Virus record (IMG/VR): IMGVR_UViG_3300043447_000100
Span: 119,667 to 183,666 of that record
Source: a virus
Lineage: Duplodnaviria; Caudoviricetes
Length of the DNA stretch: 64,000 nt
Direction: 5' to 3' (one strand)
Shown here in pieces: positions 42,624 through 63,951 of this stretch (positions are counted from its first letter, which is position 1; every line of letters starts with the position of its first letter). Under the pieces are notes generated by a model, which ran no database searches, had not been told where the DNA came from, and was given only the letters and a program-made list of their open reading frames with translations. The position numbers were made by a program, and so were the translations under genes.

Positions 42624-42685
42624 AGGATAGTAACAGCAACTTTATACACTAGACTTTTAATCTAACCTGTAAAAATTCTATCCTG
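42624..42685 (+). ncRNA. CAGCAA clamp RNA 1 (Lys-UUU anticodon hairpin)
   Basis: AGGATAG/CTATCCTG terminal stem, CAGCAA, TAGA-CTTTTAA-TCTA. Confidence 0.65.
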
Positions 42686-42694
42686 TTTTATAAT

Positions 42695-43259: not shown

Positions 43260-43664
43260 ATGTTTTCAAATAGTTTAAAGCAGGGAAATGCGGGATTGGG
43301 TCAGGCTATAGCCTATTTTACAAAGAATGGTTATGGTGTGGCATTGCCACTCACTGATAGTGAAGATTGGGACTTGATAGCGTCTAAAGACGGGATGCTA
43401 CAAAAAGTTCAAGTTAAGTCAAGTGGTCAACAGCCAGATGGGGTAGCCGCTTTTGAGATTTCAGTAAAGGGTGGTAACAATGGAAAAAATCTAACTTGTA
43501 AATATGTAGATGAACAAGATTGGGATTTATTGTTTCTATATCACATCAAGACTGAACTAACGGCATTGATACCAAAAGATAAAATCGTGTCAAAGAATTT
43601 TATTTCTTTTGGTAAACAATCAAAATACAAAGAATTTATAATTTATTCCGGTGAAGCAAACTAG
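43260..43664 (+). CDS. PD-(D/E)XK homing endonuclease inside tRNA operon
   Basis: QG..G...AIAYF, WDLI, KVQVK; AT-rich; stop codon inside downstream tRNA-Asn. Confidence 0.8.
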   Translation: MFSNSLKQGNAGLGQAIAYFTKNGYGVALPLTDSEDWDLIASKDGMLQKVQVKSSGQQPDGVAAFEISVKGGNNGKNLTCKYVDEQDWDLLFLYHIKTELTALIPKDKIVSKNFISFGKQSKYKEFIIYSGEAN

Positions 43665-44156: not shown

Positions 44157-44231
44157 GGTGATATGACGTAGATGGATGCGTAGCGGTTTCATAAGCCGAC
44201 GAGAGTGGCTCGGTACCACTTATCACCACCA
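44157..44231 (+). tRNA. tRNA-CAT (Met or Ile2), atypical T-loop
   Basis: Loop TTCATAA; GGTGATA/TATCACC acceptor; T-loop CTCGGTA. Confidence 0.7.
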
Positions 44232-44237
44232 AATCAT

Positions 44238-44331
44238 GGAGAGTAATGCAGCGGGGATGGTCCTGCGACGGGCCTTGAAAACCCGGTTCTGCTTAGCGGC
44301 GGATGGGGTTCGACTCCTCTGCTCTCCGCCA
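44238..44331 (+). tRNA. tRNA-Ser(TGA)
   Basis: Loop CTTGAAA, long variable arm, GCCA. Confidence 0.82.
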
Positions 44332-44336
44332 AGTTT

Positions 44337-44452
44337 AGGATCAGTTCAGCAAATCTTAATACAAGCAGTATGTCGTGGGTTCGACCCCCACCTTCGTTCT
44401 CATGGACGATGTAGCTCAGTTGGTAGAGCGACCGCCTAAAAAGATGATCCTG
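44337..44452 (+). ncRNA. CAGCAA clamp RNA 2 (permuted tRNA module, YrlA-like order)
   Basis: AGGATCA/TGATCCTG; T-arm GTGGG-TTCGACC-CCCAC, loop-closed acceptor, then D-arm GCTC-AGTTGGTA-GAGC. Confidence 0.75.
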
Positions 44453-44466
44453 TTAGTTTGACCATT

Positions 44467-44583
44467 AGGTTCTTTTCAGCAACTTTAAATAATCTTTCTG
44501 GAAAAAAGAGGGTCCAGGTTCGAATCCTGGCAGTAGGTTGGTCACTACTGTGGTGTAATGGTAGCACGTAAAAAGAGAACCTG
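44467..44583 (+). ncRNA. CAGCAA clamp RNA 3 (fully permuted tRNA, GGA anticodon)
   Basis: AGGTTCT/AGAACCTG; TCTTT-CTGGAAA-AAAGA, T-arm CCAGG-TTCGAAT-CCTGG, CAGTAG/CTACTG acceptor, D-arm. Confidence 0.75.
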
Positions 44584-44588
44584 TTAAT

Positions 44589-44866: not shown

Positions 44867-44968
44867 AGGATGAATACAGCAAACACTTTTCTGCAACCAA
44901 ACTTTCTGCAGGCTGGCCCGCTGGGGGCGTGTCGTGGGTTCGAGTCCCGGCTTAGACACATCATCCTG
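44867..44968 (+). ncRNA. CAGCAA clamp RNA 4 (T-loop module)
   Basis: AGGATGA/TCATCCTG; CAGCAA; GGG-TTCGAGT-CCC. Confidence 0.65.
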
Positions 44969-44976
44969 TTTTATAT

Positions 44977-45058: not shown

Positions 45059-45132
45059 CTGGGTATATGATAGTGGCAGTCGCCGGGCCTTGGATGCCTG
45101 TAGTGGGAGTTCGATTCTTCCTACCCAGACCA
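45059..45132 (+). tRNA. tRNA-Pro(TGG)
   Basis: Loop CTTGGAT; C1:G72, ACCA. Confidence 0.85.
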
Positions 45133-45141
45133 CAATTTAAT

Positions 45142-45262
45142 CCCGCTGTCGTCTAATGGTTAGGACACTTATAAAAGGGTGACTCTGTTAAGAGTACGTT
45201 CAGCAATTTTCTTATTCCATGTTAAGGAAGGAATCTGGGTTCGAATCCCAGCAGTGGGGCCA
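45142..45262 (+). ncRNA. tRNA-Asn(GTT)-like gene interrupted by a CAGCAA element
   Basis: CCCGCTG/CAGTGGG-GCCA acceptor, D-arm, ~46-nt insert containing ACTCTG..AGAGT..CAGCAA, CC-ATGTTAA-GG, T-arm. Confidence 0.7.
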
Positions 45263-45269
45263 ATATTAT

Positions 45270-45347
45270 GTACTGATACCAGAGCGGTCTAATGGCTCGG
45301 ATTGCAAATCCGTTGTTTCGTCGGTTCGAATCCGACTCAGTACTCCA
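45270..45347 (+). tRNA. tRNA-Cys(GCA)
   Basis: Loop TTGCAAA; TCCA. Confidence 0.88.
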
Positions 45348-48789: not shown

Positions 48790-48862
48790 TGAAGCGGCCG
48801 GGCGAGTATCGAACTCTCATTTCTGCTTGGAAGCAGTGTTTTTCCCCTTAAACTACGGCCGC
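48790..48862 (-). pseudogene. Degenerate tRNA-Gly(TCC)
   Basis: GCGGCCG/CGGCCGC acceptor, CTGC-TTCCAA-GCAG (6-nt loop), GTTCGA T-loop, ends TTCA. Confidence 0.65.
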
Positions 48863-52350: not shown

Positions 52351-52382
52351 ATCATTAGTGGGAATTTTATTTGGAGAACAAA

Positions 52383-52892
52383 ATGTTGAACCCCTGGATT
52401 CAAAACACATCGTTAATTGATATCAAGCGTGGTACACACATGGACGCTGGTCCTAACTCCATGCTGATTCAAATTTGCGATCCGCCTGGAGACTTCCCTA
52501 CCCCTCACTATCAGTTTGCGTCAGTTCATCAGTTTCAGTTCCTCGATGTTGAGGAAACTGATCATGTGATTGACGAGGCAATGCGTTGCTCTCATGATCA
52601 GGCACGTAGTTTAGTGCTTTTGCTCAAGCAAGCGTTTGCTAACAGAACTAACGTAATTGTTCACTGTCACGCTGGTGTTTGTCGTAGTGGCGCTGTTTGT
52701 GAAGTTGGCGTTATGCTGGGCTTCCGTGATACAGAAGTGTTCCGTAGTCCTAACTTGTTAGTCAAGCATCGTATGATGCGGGCACTCGGTTGGACTTATG
52801 ACGAGAATGAGCCACATACTATCAACGGGCAACAATACGAATATAGCAACGGCGGAATAATTCTGCCACCTACACACGAAGGTGATATTTAA
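52383..52892 (+). CDS. Cys-dependent (PTP/DSP-fold) phosphatase
   Basis: VHCHAGVCRS CX5R motif. Confidence 0.85.
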   Translation: MLNPWIQNTSLIDIKRGTHMDAGPNSMLIQICDPPGDFPTPHYQFASVHQFQFLDVEETDHVIDEAMRCSHDQARSLVLLLKQAFANRTNVIVHCHAGVCRSGAVCEVGVMLGFRDTEVFRSPNLLVKHRMMRALGWTYDENEPHTINGQQYEYSNGGIILPPTHEGDI

Positions 52893-53371
52893 TGAAGAAC
52901 AAGTGTTATGTATTAGTAGGCGTTCCTGGTAGCGGCAAGAGTACTTGGATCAAGAATCAAGATTGGGCTAAGGATATCCCTGTTGTATCTACTGACAACT
53001 TTGTAGAAGCACACGCCAAGGAAGTAGGCAAGACTTACTCGGAAGTGTTTGATAGTTATATGAAGGTAGCAGTCAGATTGATGGCTAACCAAGCCTTGGT
53101 ATGTCAAGCTAACAAGCTGGACATTATCTGGGACCAAACTTCAACTACAATCGGCGCCCGTCGTAAGAAGTTCAACACCCTGTTGAACGATCAATATGAC
53201 TTTATCGCTGTGGTGTTCAAGACGCCTGCTACCGAAGAATTGAAGCGCCGTTTAGATTCACGCCCTGGTAAGACAATTCCATGGCACGTTGTATCACAAA
53301 TGGCGGCTCAGTTAGAAGCAGAGCCACCAACAGAAGCGGAAGGCTTCAAGGAAATTTGGTATGCGGCCTGA
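52892..53371 (+). CDS. Polynucleotide kinase-like P-loop kinase
   Basis: GVPGSGKSTW, VSTD, IWDQT, R...R lid. Confidence 0.8.
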   Translation: MKNKCYVLVGVPGSGKSTWIKNQDWAKDIPVVSTDNFVEAHAKEVGKTYSEVFDSYMKVAVRLMANQALVCQANKLDIIWDQTSTTIGARRKKFNTLLNDQYDFIAVVFKTPATEELKRRLDSRPGKTIPWHVVSQMAAQLEAEPPTEAEGFKEIWYAA

Positions 53372-54023
53372 GGGTCTCGGATACTAAGTTAAGATGCTCT
53401 AGGGATAATGTCTCAGTAAACCCGTCTGGGCAAATATCCTTAGAGACAAAGCTACCTCCGAAGTTAGTCTTAATAGACTTCTCCCATTCGTATGCTTCCC
53501 TACCAGTAGAAAATAATTTAGTTGCGATGACCTCATAATCGCCATTCTTACGATGACCATAAAGTCTCCCTTGTAGATTACTTGATATTCCGTATTTGAT
53601 AAAACTATCGAATTTAAGTAGATAGCCGTGTGAGGGTAGATTCCATTTAAAGATATGTTCTACACAAGCCGGGCAGCCACCGCCGCGTAGAATTCTATTA
53701 GAGTTTGATAGCCATTCATAACCGCAGATATGCTTGAATAAAGTATTACTCTTAGCGTTTGTATAATCGCCTATGAGTTCAATTCCTCTATCTGCTATCT
53801 CTAAGTTAATTGATTCCTTGGTACGACGGGTACTATCTATAACGCAAGTTGGACAACCAACGCCGTTAAAAATTCTATTTGGTGTAGAAGTAAAATTATG
53901 GTTGTTCGAGCATTTAAATGAAGTCTTCGTCAATGATCCTAAGTATTCTCCAGTAATTGAGATACCATTGTCCAATGATTTAAGTTTATTAACGACAGAT
54001 GAATGAGTTAGCTTGGCGCCCAT
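53346..54023 (-). CDS. Homing-endonuclease-like protein (zinc ribbons plus GIY-YIG-like domain)
   Basis: Two C..H..GCP.C repeats; YLL..IKYGIS..R..E. Confidence 0.7.
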   Translation of the reverse strand: MGAKLTHSSVVNKLKSLDNGISITGEYLGSLTKTSFKCSNNHNFTSTPNRIFNGVGCPTCVIDSTRRTKESINLEIADRGIELIGDYTNAKSNTLFKHICGYEWLSNSNRILRGGGCPACVEHIFKWNLPSHGYLLKFDSFIKYGISSNLQGRLYGHRKNGDYEVIATKLFSTGREAYEWEKSIKTNFGGSFVSKDICPDGFTETLSLEHLNLVSETLRPHTKFP

Positions 54024-54105
54024 AGATATATTATATCATATTTATGATGTTTTGGCAATTAAAATGGTAATAATTAAAAACACTAAATAGATTTAGGAGA
54101 ACAAT

Positions 54106-54777
54106 ATGAAACGAGTAATTGAGATTAGAGCCGCAGAAGGCGGAGAGGATAGTAAGTTGTTTGTGCGTGACTTAGCAAACGCATATAAGAAGTTTGCTGA
54201 GCGTAAAAGCTGAGCAGTTCGCCTGATAAATGAGTATCTTGGCGAAGTTCACTTAGAAGTTCAAGGTACTGATTTATCCGGCTTAGAAAATGAAGCCGGT
54301 GGACACCGTATTCAACGTGTCCCGCCCACAGAGCGTAAGGGCCGTGTACATACAAGCACAGTCACAGTCGCAATCGTGGACCCTAGTGTGCCTCAGTTCA
54401 CACTCAACGAACGAGATTTGAAGATTGAGTGGTACAGCGGCACAGGTGCCGGCGGTCAACACCGCAACAAGCATCAAAACAGTTGTAGACTGACACACGT
54501 GCCGTCAGGTACGATAGTCACCGCACAGTGTCGTAGTCGTGAAAACAGTTATGCTCAAGCCCTGACTGATTTATCCAAAAAGGTTGTAGAGAACCTACAA
54601 TCAGTGTATAATAGCAAGGTAAGCAAAGATAGACAAAAGCAAGTCGGCTCTGGTATGAGAGGCGACAAAATAAGGACTTATCGTTTTCAAGACGATAAGG
54701 TTCAAGATCACAGGTCAATGAACGAAGCCAGCGTGAAAAAAGTATTAAGCGGCAACTTCGACTTATTATGGAAATAA
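54106..54777 (+). CDS. Class I peptide release factor-like protein (RF1-type PxT, no domain 1) with in-frame UGA at codon 36
   Basis: IEIRAAEGG..AERKS*AV..EAGGHRIQRVPPTE..GRVHTS..GAGGQHRNK..IRTY in one frame from ATG 54106 (AGGAG RBS); TGA at 54211-54213. Confidence 0.85.
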
Positions 54778-54778
54778 A

Positions 54779-54994
54779 ATGTATAAAGTAAAATGGAAAG
54801 ACAAATACGGTATCGATAGAGTTCATAATTGTATGTCACTCGCTGATGCCCTAGAATATAACAAGACAGTAAACAGACCAGGCACCTTAATCATAGGTGA
54901 AGGTATCGAGATAGTTGGCTCCATGGGAGTTGACTCAATCAAAGACGGACTATGCCCAGACGGTGTAGAATATAGTTGGAGAAAAAGACGATGA
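54779..54994 (+). CDS. Hypothetical protein
   Basis: Coupled ORF ending CPDGVEYSWRKRR. Confidence 0.6.
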   Translation: MYKVKWKDKYGIDRVHNCMSLADALEYNKTVNRPGTLIIGEGIEIVGSMGVDSIKDGLCPDGVEYSWRKRR

Positions 54995-55536
54995 GAACAT
55001 GGATCACCTCTGACCTACACTTCGGTCACACAAACATTATGAAGTTTTGCCCTCATACTCGTTCACGTTTCAAAGACGTTGACGACATGAATGAAACAAT
55101 GATTCGTGAATGGAATCAAATCGTCGAACCAGGCGATCTAGTTTACATTCTAGGCGACTTTGCGTTTCTACCTAGTGACAAGGCAGTAAAGATTGCTAAC
55201 AGATTGAACGGCGACAAGATTCTTGTTGAGGGTAATCACGACCGTAAGTTGTTGAATGATCCTGTGTTTCGCCGTTGCTTCAAAGAAGTACACCAGTATT
55301 TGAGCATCACATACAACAAGCACCGTATCTGTATGTTTCACTATCCTATCGCGGAGTGGGACCAAATGCACAGAGGCGCTCTACACTTTCACGGACACTT
55401 ACACGGCGGCAAGAGCGGCCTAGAACAGTACCGCGCACGTGATATGGCATTCGATGCTACTGGCTTCATTGTGGTAGAAATGGAACGTGCTATCAACGAT
55501 GCCATGACAGGCAAGATCAAAGGCCACCACGTTTGA
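54991..55536 (+). CDS. Calcineurin-like metallophosphoesterase
   Basis: SDLHFGH, LGD, GNHD, HYP, HGHLH. Confidence 0.9.
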   Translation: MRTWITSDLHFGHTNIMKFCPHTRSRFKDVDDMNETMIREWNQIVEPGDLVYILGDFAFLPSDKAVKIANRLNGDKILVEGNHDRKLLNDPVFRRCFKEVHQYLSITYNKHRICMFHYPIAEWDQMHRGALHFHGHLHGGKSGLEQYRARDMAFDATGFIVVEMERAINDAMTGKIKGHHV

Positions 55537-55551
55537 GATAAATACTCTATT

Positions 55552-56703
55552 ATGAAGATTTCTGACTTACTCAACGAAGACAAAAAAGGCCCTAAGATCA
55601 TCAAGCCCAAGAAATCCAGCGGCGGCGTTCGCTACAATAGCGAAGTCGGCCTTATGGCCGGCTTTATGCGACTACCGCTAGAAGAATTTGATCCTATGAA
55701 TCCTGAGCGCACAATGCCTGAACGATTGTTAGGCGATGCTCAAAGTGTTTACAAGGACATCAAAAATCTATTAGCGCCTGTCTATGATGAGGCAATGTTT
55801 GCTAAGTGGTACAACCTAGGCGAAGTCTATGGTTACGCTATGAATGAGAAGCTAACAAATACAAGTCGTCGTGTTACAGCATTCGGCTGGGCCGGAGGAG
55901 CAAATCAAAGCGAAAGCGGCCCTAGTGATGTTGAGTTTATCGGCAGTGACGTGGCAGGCGTATCAGTCAAAGCAGAAGGCGGCATTACGCTGGCCAACCT
56001 AACTCCTAAGACCTTAGGCCTAGAACCGCCTCCTAAAGAGGACGTATTTGCCGCGTATGCTCAGACAGAGTATCTTCAAATGAAGCGCAACGTATTCACA
56101 GAAGTAATGAATATCGCTAAGAGACAACCTGGCGTTCCTGTTGCCGCACTTAGTGATGCGTATTCAGTAACGTTCAACCCTGATACAAATACATTCATTT
56201 GTAAAGGCAAGAAAACAGTTGATTACACTGCTGATCAAATCATGAAAGAGTTGAATCGTAATGCTACATGGCAACGCGGCTTCGGCGACTGGTTCCAAGC
56301 AAACTTCGCTGACTACAAGCACTTTGCTGACCCTCTATTCAAGAAGGTAGCAGTAGCGTTTGAAAAGATCATCGAAGATAACCTCAAAGACAGTAAGAAG
56401 TTAGCCGGCATCTTACAGTTCGCAAAGATACCTTACTTCTATGCGACACCTAAGAGCCTGTACTATGTACCTAGTATTGATGAAGTTGAAGATTTAGAAA
56501 TCAAGGGCATCAAATATGCTGACCCTGACGGCACTTCGCAGTTGTTCAAGGCAATCATCGGCCGCAAAGACAGCATTGAAGGCGCTAATGCCGAGCTTGA
56601 TATCTATGTTAGATATGCTAACGGTATGTTTGAGACAAACCCGACAGTCAGAGTTCAGAGCCTCAAGAACCCACAGTTCATCGCCTGGGAAAAGTTAGTG
56701 TAA
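55552..56703 (+). CDS. Hypothetical late protein, possible PD-(D/E)XK-like fold
   Basis: GATAAATA upstream; SDVEF...GVSVK. Confidence 0.5.
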   Translation: MKISDLLNEDKKGPKIIKPKKSSGGVRYNSEVGLMAGFMRLPLEEFDPMNPERTMPERLLGDAQSVYKDIKNLLAPVYDEAMFAKWYNLGEVYGYAMNEKLTNTSRRVTAFGWAGGANQSESGPSDVEFIGSDVAGVSVKAEGGITLANLTPKTLGLEPPPKEDVFAAYAQTEYLQMKRNVFTEVMNIAKRQPGVPVAALSDAYSVTFNPDTNTFICKGKKTVDYTADQIMKELNRNATWQRGFGDWFQANFADYKHFADPLFKKVAVAFEKIIEDNLKDSKKLAGILQFAKIPYFYATPKSLYYVPSIDEVEDLEIKGIKYADPDGTSQLFKAIIGRKDSIEGANAELDIYVRYANGMFETNPTVRVQSLKNPQFIAWEKLV

Positions 56704-56746
56704 TACTAAAGTAGTACTTGACAATAAATCAGCCTCCTGATACAAT
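56700..56746 (+). promoter_or_regulatory. Early promoter with GTAATACT palindrome
   Basis: GTAATACTAAAGTAGTAC abutting TTGACA-17-TACAAT. Confidence 0.75.
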
Positions 56747-56777
56747 ATCTACTTAGATAGTTGATAAGGAGATTGAA

Positions 56778-57284
56778 ATGACAGATATCGTTGAAAAGGC
56801 CAGAGTATTTGCTACGGCGGCCCACGCGGCTGTCTCTCAACTCCGCAAGTACACCTTCGAACCCTACATCGTTCACCCCGCAGAAGTTGTTAGCATCGTT
56901 CGCTCGGTGCCACACACTCCTGAAATGTTAGCGGCTGCTTGGTTACACGACACAGTAGAAGACACCGGCGTTAGTATCGAGACAATTCGTGCTGAATTCG
57001 GCGACAAGGTAGCAGAGTTAGTCGGATGGTTAACGGACGTTAGTCGCCCTGAACAAGGCAACCGTGCCGTTCGTAAGGCAATCGACCGTGCTCACACAGC
57101 ACAAGCGCCTGCCGAAGCTCAGACAGTTAAGTTAGCCGACTTAATCTCTAACACAAGATCAATCATGGCACACGATGAAAAGTTTGCCAAGACCTACTTA
57201 GCAGAGAAGCGGGCTTTATTAGAAGTAATGACTAAGGGTGATGCTACATTGATGGCAATCGCTCGTAAGAACATCGAGATATAG
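56778..57284 (+). CDS. HD-domain small alarmone hydrolase-like ((p)ppGpp hydrolase/Mesh1 type)
   Basis: AH..Q.RK..EPYIVHP, WLHDTVEDT, VKLADLISN. Confidence 0.85.
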   Translation: MTDIVEKARVFATAAHAAVSQLRKYTFEPYIVHPAEVVSIVRSVPHTPEMLAAAWLHDTVEDTGVSIETIRAEFGDKVAELVGWLTDVSRPEQGNRAVRKAIDRAHTAQAPAEAQTVKLADLISNTRSIMAHDEKFAKTYLAEKRALLEVMTKGDATLMAIARKNIEI

Positions 57285-57293
57285 GAGTCTATT

Positions 57294-57482
57294 ATGGATA
57301 CTCGTGTTGAAATTCGACCAGCAACTAAGGAATATCCAAAATATCAAGTTCTGGTTTTTGAAATGAAATTTGATACCATTCGGCAATCGTCTGGATGGGT
57401 GTTGAAGATGTGTAAAGAATACCGTCTACGAGCCGATGCTGAGACATTCGCTACTCGTTACGGCTGGACTAAGGAAATTTAA
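57294..57482 (+). CDS. Hypothetical protein
   Basis: AGGAG RBS; 62 aa. Confidence 0.55.
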   Translation: MDTRVEIRPATKEYPKYQVLVFEMKFDTIRQSSGWVLKMCKEYRLRADAETFATRYGWTKEI

Positions 57483-57483
57483 A

Positions 57484-58506
57484 ATGCGTAAACTAGCAAC
57501 TATTAGACGAATTGATGCTATCGACCCTATCCCGGGCGCTGATGCTATTGAAGTAGCAACAGTCGGCGGCTGGAAAGTAGTCGCTAAACGGGGTGAGTAC
57601 AGGCCTGGTGACATGGCTGTTTACTGTGAAGTGGACTCATGGATTCCATCTAAGCTGGCTCCGTTCTTGACTAAGCCTGGTCATTTCCCCAAGACATTCG
57701 AAGGAATCGAAGGTGAACGACTAAAGACTATCAAGCTACGTGGTCAACTATCACAAGGCTTGCTACTCAACCTGGATCATGTTATCCCTGAAACACACTC
57801 ATTCGGTGAAGATTCAGATGTGACAGAGTATCTTGGTATCGTCAAGTGGGAAAAGGCAATGCCTGCTCAACTAGCGGGCACTGCTAAGGGTAACTTCCCT
57901 TCACTTATCCCTAAGACTGACCAAGAACGTGTTCAAAACTTGAAGAAGGAAATCGAGGCTTGCCAAGGACTGACTTTTGAAGTCACTGAAAAGTACGAAG
58001 GTTCTTCAATGACTGTTTACCGTTCAGTCGGTGATTCAGGTGAGATGGAATTTGGCGTATGCTCACGTAATCTAAATTTGAAAGAAGTTGAGGGCAACAC
58101 TTTCTGGGATGTAGCACGTGCCGAAGACATTGAAGCTAAGATGATTGCCGTGGACGAGTTCTGGTCATTTGCTATTCAAGGTGAATTGATTGGGCCGGGA
58201 ATTCAAGGCAACATCTACGGATTGACTAAACCTCAATTCTGTGTGTTTGATGTGTACGACATTCAGACAGGTAAGTACCTACCGCCGAAAGCTCGTAGAG
58301 AGTTGATTGAGCGTATGGGCTTGCGCCATGTTGCTGTGTTGAACGAAGAATATGTACTAACACAAACAGTCGAAGAAATCATTGCTACTGCTGAAGGGCA
58401 ATCAACAATGGCCGCGACTGAACGTGAAGGCATCGTATTCAAGCAAGTAGATGGCGGTATTACTTTCAAGGCTATTTCTAACCGGTACCTATTAAACGAG
58501 AAGTAA
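57484..58506 (+). CDS. ATP-dependent RNA ligase, DRB0094/Rnl5-like
   Basis: N-terminal OB (I.PI.GADAIE, LRGQLSQGL), TEKYEGSS, QGELIGPGIQGN, EGIVFK, FKAIS. Confidence 0.9.
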   Translation: MRKLATIRRIDAIDPIPGADAIEVATVGGWKVVAKRGEYRPGDMAVYCEVDSWIPSKLAPFLTKPGHFPKTFEGIEGERLKTIKLRGQLSQGLLLNLDHVIPETHSFGEDSDVTEYLGIVKWEKAMPAQLAGTAKGNFPSLIPKTDQERVQNLKKEIEACQGLTFEVTEKYEGSSMTVYRSVGDSGEMEFGVCSRNLNLKEVEGNTFWDVARAEDIEAKMIAVDEFWSFAIQGELIGPGIQGNIYGLTKPQFCVFDVYDIQTGKYLPPKARRELIERMGLRHVAVLNEEYVLTQTVEEIIATAEGQSTMAATEREGIVFKQVDGGITFKAISNRYLLNEK

Positions 58507-58507
58507 A

Positions 58508-58849
58508 ATGAGTAAGCGTAAAATCCTAGATGTAGAAGTAAACGACTACATCGACTTCTATGATGTACTTGATGGCAAGACTCCTGACGGTGTTGTTGAA
58601 GCCATGAAGTACTATCAAGAACACTACAAGGGTCGTGATATTTACTTTGATATTCAGTCATACGGATATGATGGCGGGAAAGAATTGAAACTCAGGGAAC
58701 GCCGTCCAGAGACTGATAAAGAGTTTGAGAAGCGTACTCAGGCAGAAAAGAAAGAACGTGCCGTCAAGCGAGAAGCTAAGGCAGTAAAAGAAGCCAGAGA
58801 ACGTGCTGAGTATGAACGATTGAAAAAGAAGTTCGGAGAACTATCGTGA
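58508..58849 (+). CDS. Hypothetical protein with basic coiled coil
   Basis: ETDKE..EYERLKKKFG. Confidence 0.65.
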   Translation: MSKRKILDVEVNDYIDFYDVLDGKTPDGVVEAMKYYQEHYKGRDIYFDIQSYGYDGGKELKLRERRPETDKEFEKRTQAEKKERAVKREAKAVKEARERAEYERLKKKFGELS

Positions 58850-59022
58850 GTAAACAAGTAGTCTATAAAGGTTCTGTCTTAGCGAACGGCTCACAAGCCC
58901 TTGAACTTTGGCAGAACTGGCAGAAAGCAAAAGCGGATCGTAATCAACATCAAAAGAAGTTGGACGATCATATGAAACAACTAGATAAGAATCTAGCAGA
59001 CCTTTTAGAGAGATACAAATGA
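58846..59022 (+). CDS. Small hypothetical protein (58 aa, not in ORF track)
   Basis: GTGA overlap, GGAG RBS; MSKQVVYKGSVLANGS... Confidence 0.55.
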   Translation: MSKQVVYKGSVLANGSQALELWQNWQKAKADRNQHQKKLDDHMKQLDKNLADLLERYK

Positions 59023-59069
59023 TTTAGAACTTTTTCTTATGGTAGCACTTACTTACCACTAAATAAGAT

Positions 59070-59723
59070 ATGAAACAAACATTAGCATATCTATACAAGT
59101 GGACTGAATTATCAACAAGTAAGTGGTACATTGGTGTCCGCTTCGCAAAAGGCTGACATCCGAATGATGGTTACATCTGTTCTAGTAGATTAGTAAAACC
59201 TATGATTACTGAGAATAGTGAAAACTGGAAAAGAGAAGTTCTATGTATTGGGTTGCCGGACGATATGATTTCTTTGGAAGAAAAATATCTCTCGTTACTT
59301 GACGCAAAAAATGACCCGATGAGTTACAATCAACATAACGGCGACGGTGACTTTAGATTCAAGGGATATGGTGGAAATGACTCGCCCTTGAAGGGAAGAG
59401 TCGGTAACAGAAAAGGCAAAAAGAATACACCAGAACATAATGCCAAGAACTCAGCCGCTCGTAAGGGTAAGCCTGCGCCTAACAAAGGCAAGCCAATGAG
59501 TGATGCTCAAAGAGAAAAATTGAGAATAGCAAATACTGGGGTCCCTAAAACAAAAGAAGCAAATAAGAAAAGATCAGAAGCACTAAAGGGTAGAACTAAA
59601 ACAGATGAACATAAAGCAAATGTGTCGGCCGCTCTAACTGGTAAACAACGCCCGAAAGTAGTATGTAGATTATCAGACAGAAAAGAAATGTGTTTAGCTC
59701 ACTTCAACAGGTATGTAAAATGA
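59070..59723 (+). pseudogene. GIY-YIG/NUMOD3 homing endonuclease with in-frame TGA at codon 29
   Basis: AYLYKW..KWYIGVR..KG*HPNDGYICSS continues in frame into ORF 59202; NUMOD3-like basic repeats; TGA 59154-59156. Confidence 0.75.
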
Positions 59724-60634
59724 TAACAAAAGATTTGATAAAGAAATATGTGACTGATAATCCTAAGTTAGTATCAATGAAGAACTCGGCAAAGTATCCT
59801 GAACTATATGTTTTGAAATACAAAAAGTCAGTATTCTATGATAACACCTGGGATGAATTCTTGGAACATTGTAGAGGAACGGTTGTAGATAAAGATTTCA
59901 ATCTAATATCTTATCCGTTCAAAAAAATATATAACTACAATGTAGAAGCTCGTGCTCCTGTGTTTGACGACACTGATGAAGTTTTGGCTTTCCGCAAAGT
60001 CAATGGGTTTATGTGTTCGGCAACTTGGCACAACGGTGATGTGTTGGTTAGTACTACTGGTACTACTGACTCGGAGTTTGTTGGCTATGCTAAGGAAATG
60101 ATGACCAAGCATATGCCTTGGGCCGACTGGCAAATGGCATTCAGTTCAGCAGACATGATCGGCTTGACTGTTATGTTTGAATGTGTACACCCAATGGACC
60201 CACACATCGTTCCTGAAAAGGAAGGTATGTATGTTCTGGGCTACCGTGAAAATCGGTGGGACTCTAAAGTAGGTCACTCTGAAACTGTGTTGGACATCAT
60301 GAGCGATACATTCAAGTGCTATGTGCCAGAGTGCTACCGCGTAACAGTGGGAGAACTAAAGCGGATGGCAAAGGATGTCAAGCACGAAGGTTTTGTATTC
60401 TATCACGCAGATGGTCGCTCGGCTAAAATCAAGTCGCCATACTATCTAACAAGTAAGTGGGTTGCCCGCAATCCTCGTACTGACAAGTTAGTGGACTTGA
60501 AGCGTGATATCAAACAAAACTTGGACGAAGAGTACTACCCACTGGTAGATGCTATTCGTGCTAACATTGTTGAATACACAGCTATGGACGAGCAAGCTCG
60601 ACTAGCTTGGGTGCGTAACTTTGTGAGCAAGTAA
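59720..60634 (+). CDS. T4 Rnl1-like RNA ligase
   Basis: CRG..PFKKIYNY, KVNG motif I, STTGT, FE, EGFV, KIKSPYY. Confidence 0.82.
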   Translation: MITKDLIKKYVTDNPKLVSMKNSAKYPELYVLKYKKSVFYDNTWDEFLEHCRGTVVDKDFNLISYPFKKIYNYNVEARAPVFDDTDEVLAFRKVNGFMCSATWHNGDVLVSTTGTTDSEFVGYAKEMMTKHMPWADWQMAFSSADMIGLTVMFECVHPMDPHIVPEKEGMYVLGYRENRWDSKVGHSETVLDIMSDTFKCYVPECYRVTVGELKRMAKDVKHEGFVFYHADGRSAKIKSPYYLTSKWVARNPRTDKLVDLKRDIKQNLDEEYYPLVDAIRANIVEYTAMDEQARLAWVRNFVSK

Positions 60635-63448: not shown

Positions 63449-63871
63449 ATGCCAGGATTATATAAAGAAAGAACTTGTCCAAATTGTGGCAAGATCAAAC
63501 GAATGCACCCAGATCAGTTATGCTGTAGTCAAACTTGTGCTAGTGAATTGGCACGAAAAGACAAAATAAATCGTTGGCTATTAGGTGAAGAAATAAAAAC
63601 ATCTAGGGGCAAAACGAGTACTGCTAGATGGATTCGTGATTACATGCTAGAACAGTCAAATTTCAAATGTTCTAAATGTAACTGGGGTGAGACAAATTTA
63701 TTTACTGGAAAAATCCCTCTAGAATTAGAACACAAAGATGGCAATTTTATGAATAATAAAATTGATAATCTAGAAGTTTTATGTCCTAACTGTCACGCTT
63801 TAACTGCTACTTATAAAGGAGCCAATAAGAGTGCCGGCAGACCTAGGGCGAAATATTATAGAGGAACATGA
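63449..63871 (+). CDS. HNH endonuclease within tRNA cluster
   Basis: CPNC..CSQTC, CSKC, LELEHKDGN..NN..NLEVLCPNCH. Confidence 0.9.
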   Translation: MPGLYKERTCPNCGKIKRMHPDQLCCSQTCASELARKDKINRWLLGEEIKTSRGKTSTARWIRDYMLEQSNFKCSKCNWGETNLFTGKIPLELEHKDGNFMNNKIDNLEVLCPNCHALTATYKGANKSAGRPRAKYYRGT

Positions 63872-63951
63872 TAATACACTGATGTGTGACCGCGTCATTC
63901 ACAGAGTGAGAGGCCTACTAAAGCTGTAGGATGTCAGTGTAGTTTTTATAT

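What the first reader, a model, noticed from the sequence alone, without database searches (positions are those of the whole stretch)
45142..45262. tRNA-Asn-like gene with a ~46-nt insert whose removal restores a perfect anticodon stem
Seen: intact acceptor, D- and T-arms, G73 and CCA. After the D-arm the sequence reads A-CTT-[ATAAAAGGGTGACTCTGTTAAGAGTACGTTCAGCAATTTTCTTATT]-CC-ATGTTAA-GGAAG. Deleting the bracket gives CTTCC/GGAAG around a GTT loop. The insert is too small for a group I/II intron and holds the CAGCAA clamp. Inference: a non-canonical tRNA intron, or an aminoacylatable tRNA with a protein-binding appendage.
Basis: partly seen in the sequence, partly recalled or inferred. Interest (0 to 1): 0.72.

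Follow-up and report, generated by a model that had tools for sequence, protein, structure and literature searches.

The report
tRNA carrying a Ro60-type protein handle
This phage gene encodes a complete, CCA-ending tRNA look-alike. Its anticodon stem carries a conserved side arm that is probably not an intron but the docking "handle" found on small RNAs travelling with a Ro60-like protein in many phages.

Summary
Window 45142-45262 (+) is a 121-nt tRNA-shaped gene with a 7-bp acceptor stem, D and T arms, G73 and CCA. Deleting 46 nt gives a perfect 75-nt cloverleaf with a GTT loop.

The insert is not private to this gene. It is the "CAGCAA module": a covarying short helix, an A-rich strand on one side and WCAGCAA on the other. 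The window holds four more copies in the opposite topology, and I found 268 distinct copies in other phage contigs. There the module forms the RNA's termini and encloses hairpins or circularly permuted tRNA bodies, the YrlA layout.

The module travels with a DUF2828/DUF7788 protein, and my model of that protein folds like Ro60.

Sixteen homologues keep the five-helix fold through compensatory changes. Their "anticodon" varies, two have 8-nt loops, and no insert-less allele was found.

Best reading (0.62): an unspliced, tRNA-shaped partner RNA (Y-RNA analogue) of a phage Ro60-like protein. Splicing is a weaker rival.

Caveat: the Ro60-like gene is absent from this 52%-complete contig.

This scan reached the same reading on other genomes. 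I found the family in neither Rfam nor the papers searched.

The parts
45142..45262 (+). Whole 121-nt tRNA-shaped RNA gene. It sits in a normal tRNA slot between tRNA-Pro (45059-45132) and tRNA-Cys (45270-45347).
45142..45148 (+). Acceptor stem 5' strand CCCGCTG. It pairs with 45252-45258 (CAGTGGG). G73 is at 45259 and the encoded CCA at 45260-45262.
   Evidence: Six of the 7 pairs covary among 16 homologues.
45151..45166 (+). D arm GTCT-AATGGTTA-GGAC, with A14, G18 and G19 present.
45168..45170 (+). CTT, the upper three nucleotides of the anticodon-stem 5' strand (positions 27-29). They pair across the insert with AAG at 45228-45230.
   Evidence: Paired in every sequence with letters on both sides. 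Pair 29:41 changes U-A to G-C in L018 and L117. The rival local pairing is broken in 4 of 16.
45171..45181 (+). A-rich strand of the handle, ATAAAAGGG-TG. It corresponds to the 'AAAAAG' strand of the open-form modules.
45182..45195 (+). Handle helix ACTCT / AGAGT closed by loop GTTA. In the open forms this is the terminal stem, and the CUGU(U) that follows its 3' strand lies here across the last helix bases and the loop (CTGTT).
   Evidence: Two fully kept covarying pairs, plus a third inner position paired in only 6 of 16. 37 different helix sequences occur among 268 open-form copies.
45198..45206 (+). GTTCAGCAA, the conserved single-stranded motif of the handle. CAGCA is invariant in all 16 homologues.
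45207..45216 (+). Variable AT-rich linker TTTTCTTATT between the handle and the lower anticodon stem.
   Evidence: Length and sequence vary among homologues and no conserved pairing is seen.
45217..45230 (+). Lower anticodon stem and loop: CC-ATGTTAA-GG, then AAG. The GTT triplet is at 45221-45223.
   Evidence: In homologues the loop is ATGTCAA (x10), ATTCGAA, ATTGAAA, or the 8-nt loops ATTGTCAA and ATCGAAAA.
45235..45251 (+). T arm CTGGG-TTCGAAT-CCCAG.
   Evidence: Three covarying pairs.

Best explanation
The gene encodes a non-spliced, tRNA-shaped small RNA.

Inferred from position: it is transcribed with the tRNA array and trimmed like its neighbours, RNase P at the 5' end and the encoded CCA at the 3' end.

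Shown by comparison: it folds into a full cloverleaf with a fifth arm. This arm leaves the anticodon stem after its third base pair (between positions 29 and 30). The arm is the 'CAGCAA handle': a 5-7 bp helix flanked by an A-rich strand and by WCAGCAA.

Inferred from gene linkage and from analogy with Ro60/Y-RNA particles: the handle is the docking site for a phage Ro60-like ring protein (DUF2828 + DUF7788, phrog_850). The tRNA body is then the effector part, with a free CCA end and an exposed anticodon loop. It would present a tRNA mimic to tRNA-binding host or phage factors, for example tRNA-directed nucleases, PNPase or the RNA-repair enzymes encoded 7-15 kb downstream.

The finding is the circular permutation of the YrlA-like RNAs next to it. 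In those, the handle holds the RNA ends and the acceptor is closed by a loop. Here the acceptor holds the ends and the handle is closed by a 4-nt loop.
For: 1. The same module occurs four more times in the window in the open topology, with different but complementary helix strands: 42624-42686, 44337-44454, 44467-44585 and 44867-44970.

2. The loci fetched by pattern contain 268 distinct open copies with 37 helix sequences. Cargo length is bimodal, 24-40 nt or 60-100 nt, and 87 cargoes have a T-loop motif.

3. 49 of about 120 loci fetched only by the RNA pattern also encode a homologue of the REP5 phrog_850 protein within a few kb. The background is 710 of 50,697 phage records.

4. Modules abut the gene in Listeria, Mycobacterium, Synechococcus, Campylobacter and Escherichia phages.

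5. Four of 5 larger contigs of the closest relatives that carry the finding's orthologue encode the protein, next to the tRNA array and flanked by open modules.

6. My AlphaFold model of that protein has pLDDT 83. Its 13 best PDB matches are all Ro60/TROVE structures, at probability 1.0 and TM 0.4-0.6. The vWA MIDAS motif DxSGS is invariant.

7. The five-helix fold is kept in 16 homologues.

8. The 'anticodon' is not conserved on a conserved body (GTC, GTT, TCG, TGA), and two homologues have 8-nt loops. The window already has tRNA-Asn twice and tRNA-Asp once.

9. No insert-less allele of this body exists in 2.9 million viral contigs, against 11 insert-bearing contigs.

10. Synechococcus phage BUCT-ZZ01 has two closed-form tRNAs with the handle at the same 29/30 site, directly downstream of its Ro60-like gene.

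11. Literature:
- YrlA Y RNAs mimic tRNA, and M. smegmatis YrlA is cut by RNase P and gets CCA (PMC4201824).
- Thermus phage phiLo Ro60 binds stem-plus-motif RNAs encoded beside it (PMC12135203).
- Bas63 gp130 is Ro60-like, lies ahead of the tRNA genes and counters the ppl defence (bioRxiv 10.1101/2024.10.10.617714).
Against: - No TROVE, DUF2828 or DUF7788 gene is present in this phage's 183.7-kb contig. None is in a 13.9-kb metagenome contig that overlaps its end, although that contig holds three more modules. The contig is only about 52% complete, so the partner may lie elsewhere or be missing.
- Binding of the handle to the protein has not been shown for any member. It is inferred from linkage.
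- The canonical Ro60 motif GNCGAA is absent.
- The perfect restoration of a 5-bp anticodon stem and a 7-nt loop is also what a splicing model predicts. The phage encodes a kinase, phosphatases and two RNA ligases.
- The effector role of the tRNA body is conjecture.
Confidence: 0.62

Rival explanations
1. The 46 nt are a new, non-BHB kind of tRNA intron. The handle would be a processing signal: an unknown endonuclease, possibly recruited by the Ro60-like protein, cuts at both junctions and a phage RNA ligase seals the exons into a decoding tRNA-Asn. The permuted neighbours would mature through a circular intermediate, as in Cyanidioschyzon.
For: Removal restores a perfect cloverleaf that ARAGORN calls tRNA-Asn. 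The pairs that bridge the insert are conserved and one covaries. All tertiary-interaction nucleotides, G73 and CCA are intact. The same module flanks circularly permuted tRNA bodies, the pattern known for BHB introns in archaea and algae. The window encodes a PNK-like kinase, phosphatases, and Rnl2- and Rnl1-type ligases. Lak megaphages have unexplained tRNA introns (PMC6784885).
Against: More than half of all modules enclose only a 24-40-nt hairpin, so there are no exons to join. The distance from CAGCA to the 3' junction varies from 8 to 13 nt and the linker is unpaired, so there is no ruler and no BHB (inspection). No splicing endonuclease (PF01974) or RtcB is in the contig. No known ribozyme matches. 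The anticodon changes among orthologues and two have 8-nt loops. The tRNA would be redundant with two tRNA-Asn genes. The closed acceptor loop of the permuted neighbour is conserved in sequence (GTTGGTC). The motif-bearing Class I RNAs of Dictyostelium are mature RNAs (PMC7919456).
Confidence: 0.12
2. The handle-bearing RNA is a working, chargeable tRNA that keeps its appendage. It is aminoacylated (Asn here, Asp in most relatives) and used either in translation or to deliver an aminoacyl group or the bound protein to a target.
For: The acceptor stem, G73, CCA, elbow nucleotides and a 7-nt loop with U33 and A37 are intact. One BUCT-ZZ01 closed form has a fully canonical Asn body and a CTGTTAA loop. 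Minihelix-plus-handle RNAs ending in GCCA exist (L026 and L083).
Against: A 46-nt arm on the anticodon stem is unlikely to fit the ribosomal A and P sites (inference). A32 is unusual. Loop length and triplet vary among orthologues, including TGA on a body without a long variable arm. The body's D arm is closest to the Glu-type tRNA D arm, not to the Asn or Asp tRNAs of the window.
Confidence: 0.15
3. The handle is recognised by some other factor than the Ro60-like protein, for example one of the phage RNA-repair enzymes, Hfq or a host protein. In that case the gene linkage is indirect.
For: This contig has five modules, and three more lie on the overlapping contig, yet no Ro60-like gene was found. 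RNA-repair genes lie between the two tRNA arrays. An RtcB-like ligase sits near the Listeria phage locus.
Against: Modules abut the Ro60-like gene in phages of five host genera that share little else. Enrichment is about 40% against 1.4% background. Stem-plus-motif RNAs beside the gene are the established Ro60 pattern (PMC4201824, PMC12135203).
Confidence: 0.08
4. A tRNA gene inactivated by insertion of a small mobile or repeat element, that is, a pseudogene.
For: CTTAT occurs at both ends of the insert in the window copy. Homing endonuclease genes lie in and near the array.
Against: The direct repeat is not conserved in homologues. The insert and the tRNA body are both kept with compensatory changes across 16 diverged homologues. 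The module helix covaries between copies rather than being identical, as transposon ends would be.
Confidence: 0.02

Closest known systems
YrlA-type Y RNAs bound by bacterial and mycobacteriophage Ro60/Rsr (Rfam RF02553; Chen et al. 2014, PMC4201824)
   Same: A small RNA made of a protein-binding stem with a short single-stranded motif beside its 5' strand, plus a tRNA-mimicking domain with T arm, D arm and acceptor-like stem. It is encoded beside a Ro60-fold protein. M. smegmatis YrlA is even cut by RNase P and receives CCA.
   Different: The motif is WCAGCAA, not GNCGAA. The protein is the DUF2828/DUF7788 branch. In the finding the topology is inverted: normal tRNA order, open acceptor with encoded CCA, and the handle closed by a loop. 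A complete anticodon arm is kept. The Rfam model gives no hit on the finding and only 31 bits (cut-off 69) on the permuted neighbour.
Thermus phage phiLo Ro60 with Yrl1/Yrl2 (PMC12135203; PDB 9KOP, 9L5Y)
   Same: A phage Ro60-fold protein that binds stem-plus-motif RNAs encoded next to its gene. It is the best structural match of the relative's protein.
   Different: The phiLo RNAs carry CGAA and no tRNA body. Sequence identity of the proteins is about 16-17%.
Bas63 (Felixounavirus) gp130, Ro60-like anti-ppl factor (bioRxiv 10.1101/2024.10.10.617714)
   Same: Apparently the same protein family, judged from Felixounavirus membership and the gene's place ahead of the tRNA array (not aligned here). 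The authors guessed that some 'tRNAs' are Y RNAs. A Felixounavirus (REP5) carries the modules, including a permuted tRNA.
   Different: No RNA partner was identified there. The closed, CCA-ending form is not described.
Class I RNAs of dictyostelid amoebae (PMC7919456)
   Same: A short covarying terminal stem, a conserved 11-nt motif directly after the 5' strand with T3, C6, C9, A10 and A11 fixed (this fits nnTnnCAGCAA-type motifs), CUGU after the 3' strand, and variable cargo.
   Different: Eukaryotic and 42-65 nt long, with no tRNA body. Their known binder is an RRM protein. The relationship was not tested here beyond the paper's text.
BHB introns and split or permuted tRNA genes of archaea and Cyanidioschyzon (general knowledge; reviewed in PMC3400036)
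   Same: One shared RNA module appears both as an insert inside tRNA genes at non-canonical positions and at the outer ends of circularly permuted tRNA genes.
   Different: No bulge-helix-bulge geometry and no splicing endonuclease. The module has conserved sequence and also encloses non-tRNA cargo.
Enigmatic tRNA introns of Lak megaphages (PMC6784885)
   Same: Short unexplained inserts in phage tRNA genes.
   Different: Lak inserts were placed by eukaryote-mode tRNAscan. No CAGCAA module is reported, and insert-less alleles exist there but were not found here.

Membership tests
Canonical decoding tRNA | Cloverleaf with 7-bp acceptor, D and T arms, elbow nucleotides, discriminator and CCA | tested here: met
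   U8, A14, A15:U48, G18G19, T54-T55-C56 and A58 are present.
Canonical decoding tRNA | Contiguous anticodon arm; recognised by tRNA models | tested here: not met
   A 46-nt interruption lies between positions 29 and 30. Default ARAGORN gives no call and the Rfam tRNA model gives no hit at E<=1.
Canonical decoding tRNA | Anticodon and 7-nt loop conserved among orthologues | tested here: not met
   GTC, GTT, TCG and TGA occur, and two homologues have 8-nt loops on one conserved body.
Group I / group II tRNA intron | Ribozyme core of at least ~200 nt, in the anticodon loop | tested here: not met
   The insert is 46 nt, lies in the stem, and has no Rfam intron or ribozyme hit.
BHB (archaeal/eukaryal) tRNA intron | Two 3-nt bulges separated by a 4-bp helix at the splice sites | tested here: not met
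   Both possible registers were checked by eye. The flanks cannot pair that way, and the linker is variable.
BHB (archaeal/eukaryal) tRNA intron | Splicing endonuclease (PF01974) available | tested here: inconclusive
   None in the 183.7-kb contig. The genome is about half complete and the host is unknown.
YrlA Y RNA (RF02553) | GNCGAA(N)G motif near the 5' end | tested here: not met
   The motif at the equivalent place is GTTCAGCAA (definition from PMC4201824).
YrlA Y RNA (RF02553) | tRNA-like domain in the order V-T-AS-D with the termini in the handle stem | tested here: not met
   The finding has normal tRNA order. The neighbours 44337-44454 and 44467-44585 do have the YrlA order.
YrlA Y RNA (RF02553) | Scores above the Rfam gathering threshold | tested here: not met
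   No hit on the finding. The neighbour scores 31 bits against a cut-off of 69.
YrlA Y RNA (RF02553) | Encoded within a few kb of a Ro60 orthologue | tested here: inconclusive
   Not in this contig. True in 4 of 5 larger contigs of close relatives.
CAGCAA-handle RNAs of phage Ro60-like proteins (not in Rfam or in the papers searched) | Short helix whose sequence varies but stays paired | tested here: met
CAGCAA-handle RNAs of phage Ro60-like proteins (not in Rfam or in the papers searched) | WCAGCAA 2-4 nt after one helix strand, an A-rich run before the other, and CUGU(U) at or after it | tested here: met
   GTTCAGCAA is at 45198-45206, ATAAAAGGG at 45171-45179 and CTGTT at 45185-45189.
CAGCAA-handle RNAs of phage Ro60-like proteins (not in Rfam or in the papers searched) | Physical binding to the DUF2828/DUF7788 protein | not testable with these tools
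   Only linkage and the Ro60 fold are shown.

The most novel reading that the evidence does not exclude
The handle is a splice and processing signal of a protein-guided tRNA maturation system unrelated to BHB or group I. A Ro60-like ring would hold handle-bearing or circularly permuted pre-tRNAs while a nuclease and the phage's own ligases cut out the handle. The phage could then switch a private set of tRNAs on during infection.
Probability: 0.08. Interest if true: 0.92.

Novelty: new variant of a known kind. Interest (0 to 1): 0.64.

Why it matters
Ro60/Y-RNA particles are conserved from bacteria to humans, yet their bacterial and phage roles are poorly understood. One phage Ro60-like protein is reported to defeat a bacterial defence, with no RNA partner identified.

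This finding gives a concrete, sequence-defined candidate partner of an unusual kind. It is a complete tRNA with a free CCA end and an exposed anticodon loop, joined to a protein handle. It is conserved in many uncultured phages and in at least one cultured cyanophage.

If the reading is right:
- tRNA gene counts in large phages are inflated by non-decoding mimics.
- "tRNA introns" in phages need re-examination.
- A tRNA body may be used to aim a Ro60-type particle at tRNA-handling enzymes or tRNA-cutting defences.

Handle and body can be mutated separately, which makes this directly testable.

Tried and rejected
- **ARAGORN's intron reading.** tRNA-Trp(cca) with a 42-nt intron at 31/32 needs a T.T mismatch and a 9-nt variable region, so I rejected it.
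- **BHB motif.** Neither register fits.
- **Rod-like pairing of ATAAAAGGG with TTTTCTTAT.** It is possible in the window copy but not conserved in L002, L004 and others.
- **Target-site duplication (CTTAT...CTTAT).** Not conserved.
- **Known ribozymes or RNA families.** No Rfam hit at E<=1 on the gene and none on modules in five other phages.
- **Splicing or ligation enzymes.** No RtcB and no tRNA splicing endonuclease in the contig.
- **Ro60-like gene in this phage.** No TROVE, DUF2828 or DUF7788 hit. I followed the contig end into metagenome contigs. An overlapping 13.9-kb contig adds 15 tRNAs and three modules but no Ro60-like gene. Another contig has the gene 600 nt upstream of the same terminal tRNA, which shows that the arrangement differs between relatives.
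- **Insert-less allele.** None in IMG/VR.
- **BLAST of the region against cultured phages.** It finds only ordinary tRNA similarity for the finding itself. The neighbouring permuted element led to the Felixounavirus copies.
- **Sequence search of the relative's protein against PDB.** Nothing found. Only the fold search showed Ro60.

Full report
**Observation**

It has a 7-bp acceptor stem, T8, a D arm with G18G19, and A26. Then come CTT, 46 nt, and CC-ATGTTAA-GGAAG. A 4-nt variable region, a TTCGAAT T arm, G73 and an encoded CCA follow.

It fills a normal slot in a polycistronic tRNA array. It lies 9 nt after tRNA-Pro and 7 nt before tRNA-Cys.

Default ARAGORN and the Rfam tRNA model (E<=1) both miss it. 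With the 46 nt removed, ARAGORN calls tRNA-Asn(gtt) and RNAfold gives a clean cloverleaf. ARAGORN's own intron reading (Trp-cca) is inferior. Single-sequence folding energy is unremarkable, with z = -1.3.

**The insert is a recurrent module**

A scan of IMG/VR for the same D and T arms 50-80 nt apart gave 11 contigs with a homologous insert. Reading the rest of the array showed that the two halves of the insert also occur separately. These halves are A-rich-strand + helix strand + GTT, and helix strand + NNWCAGCAA.

The separate halves occur four more times in the window: 42624-42686, 44337-44454, 44467-44585 and 44867-44970. There they lie in the opposite order, with the two helix strands complementary to each other but different between copies.

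In these open forms the module closes the RNA and encloses cargo:
- a 4-bp hairpin with a CTTTTAA loop;
- two circularly permuted tRNA bodies (T arm, loop-closed acceptor, D arm, one also with an anticodon arm);
- a T-arm-containing element.

The finding is therefore the circular permutation of its neighbours. Its acceptor is open and its handle is closed by GTTA.

**Spread of the module**

In all fetched loci I counted 268 distinct open modules with 37 helix sequences. The two inner helix positions use all four Watson-Crick pairs. Cargo length is bimodal, 24-40 nt or 60-100 nt, and 87 cargoes carry a T-loop motif. Pairing was a search criterion, so the diversity of helices is the informative part.

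A variant module (AGACCNN-TTACAGCAA ... NNGGTCT-GGT), including a full permuted tRNA, sits in the tRNA array of the cultured Felixounavirus REP5.

**Link to a Ro60-fold protein**

In REP5 the array starts right after an 'RNA-binding protein' (phrog_850; DUF2828 + DUF7788).

- Homologues of this protein lie within the few kb of 49 loci that had been fetched by the RNA pattern alone.
- The family occurs in only 710 of 50,697 phage records.
- Modules abut the gene on the same strand in Listeria LP-048, Mycobacterium DuncansLeg ('Ro-like RNA binding protein'), Synechococcus BUCT-ZZ01, Campylobacter Los1 and Escherichia REP5.
- Four of five larger contigs of the closest relatives, which carry the finding's orthologue, encode the protein beside the tRNA array with open modules touching it.

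I aligned 29 homologues; the MIDAS motif DxSGS is invariant. I modelled the relative's protein at pLDDT 83 and searched the PDB. The 13 best matches are all Ro60/TROVE structures over the full length.

**Comparative structure of the finding**

Sixteen closed-form homologues align well. My five-helix structure is 97.7% paired, with 14 pairs changed on both sides. Slid controls give about 45%.

RNAalifold independently recovers the acceptor, D arm, handle helix, lower anticodon stem and T arm.

The three pairs that bridge the insert are kept in every sequence with letters at both positions, with one U-A to G-C exchange. The alternative local pair is broken in 4 of 16. So the anticodon stem forms around the branch in the unspliced RNA.

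**Intron or appendage?**

Against splicing:
- Most modules enclose nothing that could be joined.
- The linker between CAGCA and the 3' junction varies from 8 to 13 nt and is unpaired.
- There is no BHB motif.
- No endonuclease or RtcB is in the contig, and no ribozyme matches.
- The loop triplet varies (GTC x11 including one 8-nt loop, GTT, TCG, TGA) and two loops have 8 nt.
- The tRNA would be redundant.
- No insert-less allele exists in IMG/VR.
- The motif is retained in mature Class I RNAs of Dictyostelium, which share the stem / motif / CUGU layout (PMC7919456; text only).

For splicing:
- The restored stem is exact.
- The parallel with BHB biology is real: the same module in introns and in permuted genes.
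- A kinase, phosphatases, and Rnl2- and Rnl1-type ligases are encoded at 52.4-60.6 kb.

I put the unspliced Ro60-handle reading at about 0.62. I give splicing 0.12, a chargeable working tRNA 0.15, another binder 0.08 and a pseudogene 0.02.

**Weak point**

This phage's own contig is 183.7 kb, about 52% complete, and the window end is the contig end. It has no Ro60-like gene. A metagenome contig overlapping its last 127 nt adds 15 tRNAs and three more modules but still no such gene.

**Known work**

- YrlA (PMC4201824) is the closest described RNA. The finding fails its motif, topology and score tests, so it works like a Y RNA but is not a YrlA member.
- Phage phiLo Ro60 binds neighbouring stem-plus-CGAA RNAs and host PNPase (PMC12135203).
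- The PhageMaP preprint shows that Bas63 gp130 is Ro60-like and counters ppl, and it guesses that some 'tRNAs' are Y RNAs (10.1101/2024.10.10.617714).
- I found no paper or Rfam family that describes the CAGCAA module or a CCA-ending tRNA carrying it.

**Earlier notes of this scan**

I reached the YrlA/Ro60-like reading before opening the notes (the notes were opened). The notes show that the same family and the same reading were reported on many other genomes, including closed forms. They gave me the leads to the PhageMaP and Class I papers, which I then read myself.

Noticed in passing
window 42624-42686: Open CAGCAA module (AGGATAG / CTATCCT). Its only cargo is a 4-bp hairpin with a tRNA-Lys-like loop CTTTTAA. 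In a relative the stem covaries (TGAA/TTCA) and the loop is kept.
   Followed up: partly
window 44337-44454 and 44467-44585: Two adjacent open modules that enclose circularly permuted tRNA bodies in the YrlA order. The second keeps an anticodon arm whose triplet is GGA here and GCA or GTA in relatives. The loop that closes the acceptor (GTTGGTC) is conserved. Rfam YrlA scores 31 bits on the first.
   Followed up: partly
window 44867-44970: Open module (AGGATGA / TCATCCT) with an 80-nt cargo that holds a T-arm-like hairpin but no recognisable tRNA body.
   Followed up: no
window 44157-44228 and 44238-44327: Two tRNA genes that ARAGORN missed but Rfam found. One is a CAT-anticodon tRNA (38.9 bits). 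The other has a long variable arm and scored on the tRNA-Sec model (36.3 bits, below cut-off); it is probably Ser-TGA.
   Followed up: no
window 52371-60634: An RNA-repair gene set between the two tRNA arrays: a PTP/DSP-like phosphatase, an AAA_33 kinase, a metallophosphoesterase, an HD protein, an Rnl2-type ligase with a PHA02142 OB domain, a NUMOD3 endonuclease and a T4 Rnl1-type ligase.
   Followed up: partly
window 43260-43664: A PD-(D/E)XK endonuclease ORF sits inside the tRNA array. An HNH ORF lies at about 63450-63900 before a further tRNA at the contig end.
   Followed up: no
L147 5582-5695 and 5711-5824 (Synechococcus phage BUCT-ZZ01, ON615601.1): Two closed-form tRNAs in a cultured cyanophage, directly downstream of its Ro60-like gene. 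The handle is at the same 29/30 site and the motif variant is TTCTGCAA. One has a canonical tRNA-Asn body and loop. This is a usable experimental system.
   Followed up: partly
L026 and L083 (IMG/VR loci; sequences): Minimal closed forms: a 6-7-bp acceptor-like helix ending in GCCA whose 'loop' is just the CAGCAA handle. They are a minihelix plus handle with no tRNA body.
   Followed up: no
L165 (metagenome contig overlapping the window's last 127 nt): The tRNA array continues beyond the contig end with 15 more tRNA genes. Three more open modules lie about 12.6-13.1 kb further on, two of them with 150-170-nt cargo.
   Followed up: partly
all fetched loci: 97 of 156 small cargoes can form a 4-5-bp stem with a 7-nt loop that has U33 and R37, like an anticodon arm. 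The commonest triplets are TTT, TGT and TGA. No chance control was run.
   Followed up: no
window 48793-48862 (-): ARAGORN reports 'tRNA-???' with a 2-nt anticodon. It overlaps the ends of predicted ORFs and is probably a false call.
   Followed up: no
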